From the NCBI RefSeq assembly GCF_001677475.2, contig NZ_CP015229.1: 64,000 nucleotides of DNA; one strand, given 5' to 3'. Of the stretch, positions 54,566 to 55,236 are shown piece by piece. Source of the DNA: Escherichia coli (GTDB lineage Bacteria > Pseudomonadota > Gammaproteobacteria > Enterobacterales > Enterobacteriaceae). Every line of letters starts with the position of its first letter. The stretch's first letter is position 1. The position numbers and the translations under genes are program-made. Under the pieces are notes generated by a model. It was not told where the DNA came from. It saw nothing but the letters and a program-made list of their open reading frames with translations, and did no database searches.

Positions 54566-55236
54566 TATTTGTCCTTAAACCATAAATAATTAGAATATAA
54601 GCCAACTGAAATATTGACGATAAAATCCCTCAATCTTTCTTCAGCAGCTTTTAACCAACCATTGAATAGGATTTCTGATCCATAAAATACGGGTTGCACG
54701 AGATGATATTCTTTGGCGTGGCGGCAATGTTGATATTTTAATGAGACTGATTCAATTTAAATTTACTAACAACGCAGTGTAGAAATTTTTAAATAATCAA
54801 CAGCACAAATAATAGATTGAGGATTATCTCAAAAAGCAGCAGAACATTTCATCAAAACGGTACAAACACTTTATACCATGAATGATTCTGGATCATAAAA
54901 CAGCTAAAAATAAATATGGCAATTGTGATTTTAGCTTCTCGAAGATATAATATTAATCTTTCTAAATTAATATTATATCAAGACCCAAAAATATCTACTC
55001 GGCAATGTCATCTTTTATTTTTTAACACCTCTTTTCGAAAAATAATAACCCATGCAAAAAAGCAACAATTACTTCCATATGTAACTTTGTGAAAATAAAT
55101 AAGCGCCATTGCTATAAATGGAAACATTTATTTTTTCACACCAGGACGATTAAACGCATTTAAATAGCAATAATTTCAATACAGTAAGCAAAACTAAGGC
55201 CCGACAGCATACGCCAGCGGGCCTTACACGTTCATA
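54566..55236 (-). promoter_or_regulatory. 670-bp AT-rich promoter/regulatory region of the yfc fimbrial operon
   Basis: Long non-coding spacer with very low GC and A/T tracts upstream of yfcV, typical of silenced fimbrial promoters. Confidence 0.4.

What the first reader, a model, noticed from the sequence alone, without database searches (positions are those of the whole stretch)
54566..55236. 670-bp very AT-rich non-coding region upstream of the yfc fimbrial operon
This is the longest non-coding stretch in the window, with GC content far below the surroundings and long A/T tracts. It has the look of an H-NS-silenced fimbrial promoter region. No ORF of 60 aa or more and no recognisable inverted-repeat switch was seen.
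Basis: partly seen in the sequence, partly recalled or inferred. Interest (0 to 1): 0.3.

Follow-up and report, generated by a model that had tools for sequence, protein, structure and literature searches.

The report
Silenced control region of yfc fimbriae
This AT-rich 671-bp gap is the ordinary upstream control region of a normally silent Escherichia fimbrial operon; its E. coli K-12 counterpart is already known to bind the silencer H-NS, and the only mildly new point is a conserved strong promoter that faces away from the operon.

Summary
Window 54566-55236 is exactly the spacer between the yfcV start and the sixA stop. It is 671 bp at 31% GC against 51% for the window, sits in the window's lowest-GC stretch, and is the longest run without an ORF of 60 aa or more.

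The K-12 yfcV/sixA spacer is a published H-NS-bound "promoter island" and binds RNA polymerase in vitro. It also holds two Rho-termination regions, one on each strand.

The sequence here is a divergent allele, 52-66% identical to the other Escherichia alleles and absent from 5,426 complete E. coli genomes. Its architecture is nonetheless conserved in seven allele classes:
- the sixA terminator;
- a weak promoter toward yfcV (TTGAAT-17-CAACAT, with an UP-like tract);
- a near-consensus promoter facing away from yfcV (TTGTGA-17-TATAAT), lying partly inside a perfect 36-bp palindrome;
- a conserved leader and Shine-Dalgarno sequence.

I found no conserved small ORF, no Rfam RNA, no invertible switch and no pap-type Dam switch. 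The region is an ordinary, already known kind of feature. yfcV itself is frameshifted in this strain.

The parts
54566..55236 (.). Whole yfcV/sixA spacer: AT-rich regulatory region of the yfc operon
   Evidence: 671 bp, 31.1% GC, no ORF of 60 aa or more. It ranks in the top 2% of 671-bp windows for promoter-like hexamer pairs (15 against a median of 3). H-NS-motif-like matches occur at 4.5 per kb against 1.2 per kb.
55185..55226 (-). sixA intrinsic terminator: stem-loop 55226-55195 followed by the T-rich run AGTTTTGCTT
   Evidence: Found by the terminator scan. Folds at -20.6 kcal/mol, z = -2.95. A GCCCG...CGGGC hairpin with differing stem and loop sequences is present at this position in all sixA-flanked allele classes.
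54923..54951 (+). Panti: near-consensus sigma-70-type promoter facing away from yfcV (TTGTGA-17-TATAAT); predicted start about 54958
   Evidence: It is the only site matching 10 of 12 or better on either strand of the window's spacer. It sits at the same alignment position in 14 of 14 sequences and 7 allele classes. The -10 is TATAAT in 11 of 14. It lies 367-381 bp from the yfcV ATG, including in E. albertii and in an sspB-flanked Pseudocitrobacter-type locus.
54944..54979 (.). Perfect palindrome GATATAATATTAAT-N8-ATTAATATTATATC; each arm carries TATAAT on one strand
   Evidence: Found. None of 300 dinucleotide shuffles reached 14 nt; the maximum was 11. As a hairpin it folds with z = -4.17. 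Dyad symmetry is kept at 6-14 of 14 positions in the other classes, against about 4 expected.
54928..54956 (-). Distal yfcV-directed promoter-like site TTAATA-17-TAAAAT, fully overlapping Panti on the other strand
   Evidence: Found. It is positionally conserved in 4 of 5 classes, with -10 variants TAAAAT, TATAAT, TAATAT, TACAAT and TAGAAT.
54972..54980 (-). Extended -10 (TGATATAAT) toward yfcV in the other palindrome arm; lineage-specific
   Evidence: Read from the sequence. The hexamer is TATAAT only in the window's allele class.
54727..54772 (-). P1: proposed core promoter of yfcV. An UP-like tract AGTAAATTTAAA, then -35 TTGAAT (54755-54750), a 17-bp spacer, and -10 CAACAT (54732-54727); predicted start about 54720
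   Evidence: The TTG is invariant. The spacer is exactly 17 bp in 14 of 14 sequences although its sequence differs. The -10 is CAnnAT, or TAATGT in E. albertii. The end of the -10 lies 147-161 nt from the ATG.
54700..54723 (-). Conserved block CGCCACGCCAAAGAATATCATCTC just downstream of P1, in the predicted initially transcribed region
   Evidence: Its mean conservation is 0.74 across class representatives, against 0.52 for the spacer overall. The core CCAAAGAATA is kept in E. albertii and in the Pseudocitrobacter-type locus.
54649..54670 (-). Conserved leader block CCTATTCAATGGTTGGTTAAAA
   Evidence: Mean conservation 0.78; present in all 7 classes. Nucleotide diversity within the lineage is 0-0.018 across the proximal 170 bp.
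54566..54604 (-). Most conserved block: leader end with the Shine-Dalgarno AAGGA (54576-54572), 6 nt (ACAAAT) before the ATG
   Evidence: Mean conservation 0.89; nearly invariant in all alleles.
54077..54565 (-). yfcV (major fimbrial subunit), truncated in this strain
   Evidence: 162 aa here against 187 aa in ten same-lineage loci. The cause is loss of one copy of a 7-bp tandem repeat near 54096.
55237..55722 (-). sixA (phosphohistidine phosphatase), the upstream neighbour

Best explanation
The region is the 5' regulatory spacer of the cryptic yfc chaperone-usher fimbrial operon, with the sixA intrinsic terminator at its far end.

Proposed mechanism:
- About 600 bp of 31%-GC, TpA-rich DNA is coated by H-NS. 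This is shown for the K-12 ortholog and inferred here.
- RNA polymerase can bind many overlapping promoter-like sites, the 'promoter island' situation, but productive transcription toward yfcV stays low.
- The real yfcV promoter is probably P1 (UP-like tract, TTGAAT-17-CAACAT, about 155 nt before the ATG). Its weak -10 would make it dependent on removal of H-NS or on an activator.
- A much stronger, conserved promoter (Panti, TTGTGA-17-TATAAT) fires in the opposite direction from about 240 bp upstream of P1. It would give an untranslated, C-rich RNA.
- Stray transcripts on both strands are cut short by Rho, as measured in K-12.
- Expression would rise when H-NS is displaced or Rho is inhibited. 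In other strains yfcV was upregulated on overproduction of TosR, a PapB-family protein, and of BolA.

The anatomy and its conservation are shown here. H-NS and Rho action are shown only for K-12. The promoter assignments and the role of Panti are inferred.
For: Position and composition.

K-12 ortholog:
- Promoter island 2453647_489 yfcV/sixA with H-NS mark 'K' (PMC3661553).
- An RpoD-holoenzyme SELEX peak with an 'HNS' flag (PMC3946193).
- Two of the 1,078 genome-wide Rho-termination regions lie inside the K-12 spacer (PMC7815308 supplementary file 2). One is at 2456198 (-), Rho score 9.3, p = 1e-41, about window 55114. The other is at 2455977 (+), Rho score 3.9, p = 4e-6, about window 54909 (mapping).
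- No genuine yfcV start was found in a K-12 TSS map. The only assigned 5' end lies inside the sixA terminator (PMC3415461).

Literature on the locus:
- yfc is described as cryptic, and the cryptic CU fimbriae of commensal strains as H-NS-repressed (PMC3559732).
- yfcV is upregulated on TosR overproduction (log2 5.2; PMC5956150) and on BolA overproduction (PMC4337573).
- H-NS-silenced genes are typically activated by Rho inhibition (abstract of 10.1101/2022.04.26.489344).

Conservation:
- Spacer length is 557-687 bp in all alleles, although identity between classes is about 50-66%.
- P1 and Panti are positionally conserved in 14 of 14 sequences.
- The proximal 204 bp are more conserved than the distal part (0.65 against 0.45). 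Within-lineage diversity is 0-0.018 against 0.04-0.145.
- The spacer travels with the operon even where the upstream neighbour is sspB rather than sixA.
- The predicted Panti RNA has C:G = 2.0, a Rho-substrate-like composition.
Against: - No H-NS, RNA polymerase or transcription-start data exist for this allele, and the K-12 allele is only about 55% identical.
- Grainger's H-NS data set did not call the K-12 spacer; the mark is 'K', not 'A'.
- AA/TT phasing at 10-11 bp is no better than in shuffles (p = 0.42), so strong intrinsic curvature is not supported.
- The number of promoter-like sites equals that of dinucleotide shuffles of the region itself (4 against 4.3). The 'island' property is therefore mostly a consequence of AT-richness.
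- P1 has a poor -10 (3 of 6), and its assignment rests on conservation alone.
- Searches of the TSS and sigma-factor supplements held gave no start for either promoter.
- yfcV is frameshifted here, so in this strain the region may control a defective operon.
Confidence: 0.8

Rival explanations
1. The functional core is the conserved outward promoter Panti, and it works through the act of transcription or polymerase binding rather than through its RNA. It could act as a competitor or decoy that occupies the overlapping yfcV-directed sites. Alternatively, divergent transcription could deliver negative supercoils or loosen H-NS upstream of P1. This is an added layer on top of H-NS silencing, not an alternative to it.
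For: - Panti is the best sigma-70 match in the spacer and is conserved in 7 classes at a fixed distance from the ATG.
- The sequence downstream of it is the least conserved part of the spacer (0.27-0.47), and no ORF is conserved there.
- It fully overlaps a yfcV-directed promoter-like site and sits partly in a significant palindrome.
- In K-12, bicyclomycin raises + strand reads downstream of about 2455977 from 25 to 186.
Against: - No transcription start has been mapped for it.
- Conservation of AATATTATAT could instead reflect a protein-binding site such as an H-NS nucleation site.
- The B2 allele (F11) has only a weak version, TTACCA-16-TTTAAT.
- Promoter-like hexamers are common in AT-rich DNA.
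Confidence: 0.2
2. A fim-type invertible promoter switch: a segment bounded by inverted repeats is flipped by a site-specific recombinase.
For: Short inverted repeats exist. A perfect 10-nt pair lies at 54541-54550/54897-54906, and a perfect 9-nt pair at 54628-54636/54814-54822.
Against: - Such pairs are expected by chance in AT-rich DNA; my estimate is about 2 perfect 10-mers per kb.
- One arm of the 10-nt pair lies inside the yfcV coding sequence.
- The 9-nt pair is broken in the closest relative, E69.
- The locus is colinear with K-12 from smrB to fadI, leaving no room for a recombinase gene.
- All alleles were found in a single orientation.
Confidence: 0.02
3. A pap-type Dam/Lrp methylation switch using two GATC sites.
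For: Two GATC sites (54677 and 54891) lie in a loose 14-nt inverted repeat. The proximal GATC is present in 4 of the 5 Escherichia classes compared; E. albertii and the Pseudocitrobacter-type locus lack it.
Against: - Two GATC sites is what chance gives: mean 1.8 in shuffles, p = 0.55.
- The sites are 214 bp apart, not about 102 bp (established knowledge of pap).
- The distal GATC is specific to the window's class.
- No papI or papB homologue lies in the locus.
Confidence: 0.03
4. The spacer hides a small gene: a small protein or an sRNA.
For: - ORFs of 58 aa (54916-55092, + strand), 44 aa (54565-54699, - strand, whose stop overlaps the yfcV ATG as TAATG) and 39 aa (55008-55127, - strand, hydrophobic) are present.
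- ORF39 is intact in all ten same-lineage loci.
Against: - ORF58 carries stops in 6 of 10 close relatives.
- The 44-aa ORF is broken in L012 and is absent or shortened to about 20 codons in other classes.
- The frame of ORF39 is broken by a 2-nt indel in class 2. Its invariant part has no synonymous changes either, so the conservation is at the DNA level.
- None of the three has a Pfam match.
- No Rfam hit comes near a gathering score; the best is 22 bits against 47.
- The leader shows no excess RNA structure (z = +0.35).
- RefSeq MG1655 annotates nothing in the spacer.
Confidence: 0.05
5. Mostly functionless filler: AT-biased non-coding DNA that drifts freely, with only the terminator and a short promoter and ribosome-binding site being functional.
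For: Identity between classes is about 50%, near saturation for AT-rich DNA. The distal 55116-55165 bin has conservation 0.27. Within-lineage diversity reaches 0.145.
Against: - Spacer length is kept at 557-687 bp in seven classes.
- Conserved blocks occur as far as 380-430 bp from the ATG, at fixed distances.
- The whole K-12 spacer binds H-NS and RNA polymerase.
Confidence: 0.1

Closest known systems
E. coli K-12 yfcV/sixA spacer, 'promoter island' 2453647_489 (Panyukov & Ozoline 2013, PMC3661553; Shimada 2014, PMC3946193)
   Same: - Same locus: sixA stop to yfcV ATG.
- Same length class (680 against 671 bp) and similar GC (32% against 31%).
- Same conserved blocks: terminator, Panti, P1, leader and Shine-Dalgarno sequence.
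   Different: - Only about 55% identical overall.
- The window carries a perfect 36-bp palindrome that K-12 lacks (6 of 14 dyad positions).
- The yfcV-directed promoter named by Shimada (TTGAAA-17-TATAGT) has no counterpart of 10/12 or better in any other allele.
- H-NS, RNA polymerase and Rho data exist only for K-12.
Regulatory spacers of other cryptic chaperone-usher fimbriae of E. coli K-12 (yadN/folK, folD/sfmA, ybgD/gltA, yehD/yehE, ssuE/elfA, agaI/yraH)
   Same: All are listed as H-NS-bound promoter islands upstream of fimbrial major-subunit genes. They are described as cryptic and H-NS-repressed.
   Different: I did not compare them at the sequence level. Whether they also hold a conserved outward-facing strong promoter is unknown.
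fimS invertible switch of type 1 fimbriae
   Same: An AT-rich, H-NS-bound fimbrial promoter region; fimE/fimA is also a promoter island.
   Different: There are no conserved flanking inverted repeats, no recombinase genes and no evidence of two orientations.
pap regulatory region (divergent papI and papBA promoters, Lrp/Dam switch)
   Same: A divergent promoter pair a few hundred bp apart in an AT-rich fimbrial control region antagonised by H-NS. A PapB-family protein, TosR, induces yfcV.
   Different: There is no gene downstream of the outward promoter, no papI or papB homologue, and the GATC sites are at chance level with the wrong spacing.
Bidirectional promoters arising from -10 symmetry (Warman et al. 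2021; from my own knowledge, not read here)
   Same: Promoters on opposite strands share the same AT-rich DNA. TATAAT is present on both strands of a palindrome.
   Different: As I recall, the described class has starts about 18 bp apart. Here the divergent pair is about 37 bp apart (Panti against the distal site) or about 238 bp apart (Panti against P1). The two palindrome TATAATs face each other.

Membership tests
H-NS-silenced AT-rich promoter region | AT content far above the genome background over several hundred bp | tested here: met
   31.1% GC against 51.1%; the window's lowest-GC 671-bp stretch (29.7%) overlaps the region.
H-NS-silenced AT-rich promoter region | H-NS occupancy in vivo (ChIP) | not testable with these tools
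   Shown only for the K-12 ortholog: mark 'K' for Kahramanoglou and Oshima and the 'HNS' flag in SELEX. The Kahramanoglou supplement is not held.
H-NS-silenced AT-rich promoter region | Derepression of the downstream gene when H-NS is removed | not testable with these tools
   Only secondary statements are available: cryptic CU fimbriae are repressed by H-NS (PMC3559732). I could not read the primary paper, Korea et al. 2010.
H-NS-silenced AT-rich promoter region | High-affinity H-NS motif (tCGATAAATT; motif recalled from Lang et al. 2007) and TpA-rich flexible DNA | tested here: inconclusive
   Three matches with 2 or fewer mismatches (4.5 per kb against 1.2 per kb) and none with fewer than 2. 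TpA frequency is twice the window's.
H-NS-silenced AT-rich promoter region | Intrinsic curvature from phased A-tracts | tested here: not met
   AA/TT power at a period of 9.5-11.5 bp equals that of shuffles (3.91 against 3.87, p = 0.42). This is a crude test, not a curvature model.
Promoter island (Panyukov & Ozoline) | 300 bp or more with an exceptionally high density of overlapping promoter-like start points (PlatProm) | tested here: inconclusive
   PlatProm is not available. A simple hexamer scan gives 15 sites against a window median of 3, in the top 2%, but no excess over shuffles of the region itself. The K-12 ortholog is on the published list.
Promoter island (Panyukov & Ozoline) | RNA polymerase binding with little productive transcription | not testable with these tools
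   In K-12 there is an RpoD SELEX peak and no genuine yfcV start in a TSS map.
Rho-terminated untranslated transcription in silenced DNA | Bicyclomycin-dependent read-through | not testable with these tools
   K-12 only: Rho scores 9.3 (- strand) and 3.9 (+ strand) inside the spacer. In the window, the predicted Panti RNA has C:G = 2.0.
Intrinsic terminator (of sixA) | GC-rich stem-loop followed by a U-run, just after the stop codon | tested here: met
   Stem-loop 55226-55195 with a T-rich run after it; -20.6 kcal/mol, z = -2.95. A hairpin of differing sequence is kept at this position in other alleles.
fimS-type invertible switch | Conserved inverted repeats bounding the promoter segment | tested here: not met
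   The distant inverted-repeat pairs are at chance level and not conserved.
fimS-type invertible switch | Adjacent tyrosine recombinase gene(s) | tested here: not met
   The locus is colinear with K-12 from smrB through yfcO-V and sixA to fadJ, with no extra gene.
pap-type Dam/Lrp phase switch | Two conserved GATC sites about 102 bp apart within Lrp sites, plus papI/papB-like genes | tested here: not met
   The two GATC sites are 214 bp apart and at chance level (p = 0.55). The distal one is not conserved, and there are no regulator genes.
Known RNA family (Rfam 15) | Match reaching the family's gathering score | tested here: not met
   The best hit is 22.3 bits against a gathering score of 47; all eight hits are far below threshold.
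Sigma-70 promoter (P1 and Panti) | -35 and -10 hexamers at 17 +/- 1 bp, conserved in position; a mapped start site | tested here: inconclusive
   Hexamers, spacing and position are conserved in 14 of 14 sequences. No start-site data were found.

The most novel reading that the evidence does not exclude
All yfc alleles, across Escherichia and a Pseudocitrobacter-type locus, keep a near-consensus promoter that fires away from the operon into about 175-300 bp of unconserved, non-coding, C-rich DNA ending at the neighbouring gene's terminator. The most novel reading is that this is a dedicated regulatory device. On this reading, polymerase binding or divergent, Rho-limited transcription at Panti sets the on/off state of the H-NS-coated fimbrial promoter P1, and the perfect palindrome of this lineage acts as an operator or cruciform that tunes it.
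Probability: 0.15. Interest if true: 0.45.

Novelty: already known. Interest (0 to 1): 0.2.

Why it matters
It matters little as a discovery. The region is a textbook example of an AT-rich, H-NS-targeted control region of a cryptic fimbrial operon, and its K-12 counterpart is already in published lists.

It has some practical value:
- It gives a conservation-based map of where the yfc promoter and its outward-facing partner lie. That could guide reporter and mutation experiments on a fimbrial gene, yfcV, that is used as a marker of uropathogenic E. coli.
- It shows that the whole yfc locus, control region included, exists as deeply divergent alleles. Detection of 'yfcV' by PCR or by sequence identity would therefore probably be allele-specific, which I did not test.

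Tried and rejected
- **Rfam:** a scan with permissive filters gave only sub-threshold noise.
- **Small ORFs:** conservation tests were negative or uninformative, and the three ORFs had no Pfam match.
- **Decayed gene downstream of Panti:** three-frame translations in seven classes are full of stops with no shared peptide.
- **Invertible switch and pap-type Dam switch:** rejected.
- **Upstream ORF coupled to yfcV** (TAATG overlap): not conserved.
- **RNA structure of the leader:** z = +0.35.
- **A-tract phasing:** not above chance.
- **Repeat of the palindrome elsewhere in the window:** only a 2-mismatch chance hit at 62122.
- **Transcription-start evidence for K-12:**
  - The ROSE supplement, the Cappable-seq supplements and the Cho 2014 supplement gave nothing.
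  - Kim 2012 gave only a 5' end inside the sixA terminator.
  - Thomason 2015 is not held.
  - The Kahramanoglou supplement is not held.
- **Follow-up promoter-island papers:** they do not mention yfcV.
- **Transcription-factor consensus sites:** I compared the conserved blocks by eye with consensus sites for CRP, IHF, Lrp, PhoP and CpxR, recalled from memory, and found only half-sites. I make no claim from this.
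Full report
**1. The observation**

Window 54566-55236 is exactly the gap between the ATG of yfcV (54077-54565, - strand) and the stop codon of sixA (55237-55722, - strand).
- It is 671 bp at 31.1% GC, against 51.1% for the window.
- The lowest-GC 671-bp stretch of the 64 kb (29.7%) overlaps it.
- It is the longest interval without an ORF of 60 aa or more. The next such interval is 425 bp, and the largest ORF inside is 58 aa.
- If only ORFs of 150 aa or more count, three other gaps are as long or longer.
- A/T homopolymer runs, pure-A/T runs and TpA steps are two- to three-fold enriched.

**2. Context**

The neighbourhood is the Escherichia map smrB, yfcO-P-Q-R-S-U-V, sixA, fadJ, fadI, all colinear with K-12. 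yfcV is the first gene of the operon, so the spacer is its upstream region and also the downstream region of sixA.

Other parts of the window are 97-98.5% identical to RefSeq E. coli. The block 47881-55236, from yfcO to the spacer, is only 69-77% identical to K-12, while its flanks are 93.5-94.4% identical. The break falls exactly at the sixA stop.

No complete RefSeq E. coli genome among 5,426 carries this allele of the spacer. The best match is 82.5% identity over 63% of the query (megablast), or 69% over 98% (blastn). The closest public sequences are GCA_018428365.1 (99.7% over 5.5 kb) and CP089930.1 'E. coli E69' (96.2%).

**3. Comparative anatomy**

I collected the spacer from 14 sequences in seven allele classes:
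1. window / E69 / L010
2. E5 / E686 / ETEC4075
3. B2 strain F11
4. O157 / E1V33 / E. whittamii
5. K-12 / MOD1-EC7003
6. E. albertii
7. a Pseudocitrobacter-type locus whose upstream neighbour is sspB, not sixA

Identity between classes is only 47-71%, but length stays at 557-687 bp. The spacer therefore belongs to, and travels with, the yfc operon.

Conservation is concentrated in a few blocks.

(a) *The terminator of the upstream gene.* In the window this is the stem-loop at 55226-55195 plus a T-rich run, at -20.6 kcal/mol and z = -2.95. A hairpin of differing sequence is kept at this position in the other alleles.

(b) *A central block, 54939-54994.*

(c) *The proximal 200 bp.* Mean conservation is 0.65 against 0.45 distally. 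Within-lineage diversity is 0-0.018 against 0.04-0.145. The peak is the last 39 bp, which carry the Shine-Dalgarno AAGGA (conservation 0.89).

**4. Promoters**

Scanning every allele and projecting the hits onto the alignment shows two positionally conserved sigma-70-type promoters.

*P1 points toward yfcV.*
- It consists of an A/T-rich UP-like tract (AGTAAATTTAAA), -35 TTGAAT (54755-54750), a spacer of exactly 17 bp in all 14 sequences although its sequence differs, and -10 CAACAT (54732-54727).
- The -10 varies as CAnnAT, or TAATGT in E. albertii. The TTG of the -35 is invariant.
- The end of the -10 lies 147-161 nt from the ATG.

*Panti points away from yfcV.*
- It reads TTGTGA (54923-54928), 17 bp, TATAAT (54946-54951) on the + strand.
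- It is the only site matching 10 of 12 or better on either strand of the window's spacer.
- TATAAT is kept in 11 of 14 sequences. The -35 varies as TTGTGA, TTGAGA, TTGTAA, TTGCCT or TTGGCA.
- Its distance to the ATG is 367-381 bp in all classes. The B2 allele has only a weak version.

*Overlaps with Panti.*
- A yfcV-directed site, TTAATA-17-TAAAAT (54956-54928), lies on the opposite strand and is conserved in 4 of 5 classes.
- Part of a perfect 14+14-nt palindrome (54944-54979) also overlaps it. None of 300 shuffles reached that length. Its dyad symmetry is partly retained in other classes, at 6-14 of 14 positions.

*Downstream of Panti* there is no conserved ORF. The sequence there is the least conserved of the spacer, and the predicted RNA is C-rich and G-poor (C:G = 2.0).

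**5. Experimental evidence for the K-12 ortholog**

- The yfcV/sixA spacer is one of 78 'promoter islands' and is marked as H-NS-bound in two ChIP data sets (PMC3661553).
- It gives an RNA-polymerase holoenzyme SELEX peak and carries the 'HNS' flag (PMC3946193).
- In the Rho-inhibition data of Adams et al. (PMC7815308, supplementary file 2), two of the 1,078 genome-wide Rho-termination regions fall inside the spacer:
  - 2456198 (- strand): Rho score 9.3, p = 1e-41. Downstream reads rise from 73 to 738 with bicyclomycin. This maps to about window 55114.
  - 2455977 (+ strand): Rho score 3.9, p = 4e-6. Downstream reads rise from 25 to 186. This maps to about window 54909, just upstream of Panti.
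- A K-12 TSS map lists only a 5' end inside the sixA terminator for yfcV, so it shows no genuine promoter activity in the laboratory (PMC3415461).
- yfc is described as cryptic but functional, and the cryptic CU fimbriae of commensal strains as H-NS-repressed (PMC3559732).
- yfcV is upregulated on overproduction of the PapB-family protein TosR and of BolA.
- RefSeq MG1655 annotates nothing in the spacer.

**6. Most likely mechanism**

H-NS coats the AT-rich spacer. Polymerase binds but rarely produces yfcV mRNA from the weak P1. Stray transcripts on both strands are terminated by Rho. Displacing H-NS or inhibiting Rho raises expression.

The anatomy and its conservation are shown here. H-NS and Rho action are shown only for K-12. 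The promoter assignments are inferred from conservation. The role of Panti (competitor, supercoiling source or by-product) is open. My confidence in the overall reading is 0.8.

**7. Rivals rejected**

- *Invertible switch.* The inverted-repeat pairs are at chance level and not conserved, and there is no recombinase gene.
- *pap-type Dam/Lrp switch.* Two GATC sites are what chance gives (p = 0.55), they are 214 bp apart, the distal one is not conserved, and there are no papI/papB genes.
- *Hidden sRNA.* Rfam gives nothing near threshold, and the leader has no excess structure.
- *Hidden small protein.* ORF58 is broken in 6 of 10 relatives. The TAATG-coupled 44-aa ORF is not conserved. ORF39 is intact in the lineage but is not conserved as a reading frame elsewhere. 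None has a Pfam match.
- *Intrinsic curvature.* Phased A-tracts are not supported.

**8. Comparison and verdict**

The region is the orthologue, as a divergent allele, of a published H-NS-bound promoter island. It resembles the control regions of the other cryptic fimbriae of E. coli. It is not a fimS-type or pap-type switch.

The kind of feature and the locus are already known. The conserved outward-facing near-consensus promoter and this lineage's perfect palindrome are details I did not find described in the papers I could search. They remain predictions without start-site data. Interest is low (0.2).

Noticed in passing
window 54077-54565, lesion near 54096: yfcV is frameshifted in this strain. 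One copy of a 7-bp tandem repeat (CTTTAAA-CTTTAAA in all ten same-lineage loci) is missing. The product is 162 aa instead of 187 aa and lacks the conserved C-terminal strand (...FQITYL). It is either a pseudogene or a sequencing error.
   Followed up: yes
window 47881-55236: The whole yfc locus, from yfcO to the upstream spacer, is a hyperdivergent cassette. It is 69-77% identical to K-12, while the flanks (smrB side and sixA-fadJ side) are 93.5-94.4% identical. The right boundary falls exactly at the sixA stop codon. At least five allele classes exist within Escherichia.
   Followed up: partly
window 54400-55400 against RefSeq: This allele of the spacer and yfcV is absent from all 5,426 complete RefSeq E. 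coli genomes; no hit covers 80% or more of the query by megablast. It does occur in draft or other assemblies that share the identical SixA protein.
   Followed up: partly
window 51290-53938: The usher gene yfcU is intact here (882 aa), whereas in K-12 MG1655 it is annotated as a pseudogene.
   Followed up: no
L030 594-1150: In a Pseudocitrobacter-type locus the yfc operon sits next to sspB instead of sixA, yet it keeps a 557-bp, 28%-GC spacer with the same P1, Panti and leader blocks. The sspB terminator there looks bidirectional, with an A-run before and a T-run after the stem.
   Followed up: partly
L007 (JAIJJM010000567.1): A 2.2-kb contig labelled 'MAG: Collinsella sp.' carries sixA, the spacer and yfcV, 97% identical in the spacer to E. 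coli strain E5. This is most likely a mis-binned Escherichia contig.
   Followed up: no
window 5379-6228 and 61571-63000: Two other low-GC stretches (34% and 31% GC) also have high densities of promoter-like sites. The first is the lrhA-nuoA regulatory region. The second covers a hypothetical protein gene between fadL and mlaA.
   Followed up: partly
window 55008-55127 (- strand): A hydrophobic 39-aa ORF (MFPFIAMALIYFHKVTYGSNCCFFAWVIIFRKEVLKNKR) is intact in all ten same-lineage loci and overlaps the least polymorphic distal bin (55037-55086, diversity 0.004). It has a poor ribosome-binding site and is not kept as a frame in other classes.
   Followed up: partly
window 55004-55029 and 55117-55142: A 26-nt direct repeat, 81% identical and 113 bp apart (AATGTCATCTTTTATTTTTTAACACC / AATGGAAACATTTATTTTTTCACACC). 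Its significance is unknown, and its distal copy lies in the poorly conserved part of the spacer (55116-55165).
   Followed up: no
K-12 NC_000913.2 position 2454310 (equivalent to the window's sixA terminator, about 55200): The only 5' end assigned to yfcV in the Kim 2012 TSS table lies 642 nt upstream, inside the sixA terminator hairpin. It is more likely a processing or decay end than a promoter.
   Followed up: no
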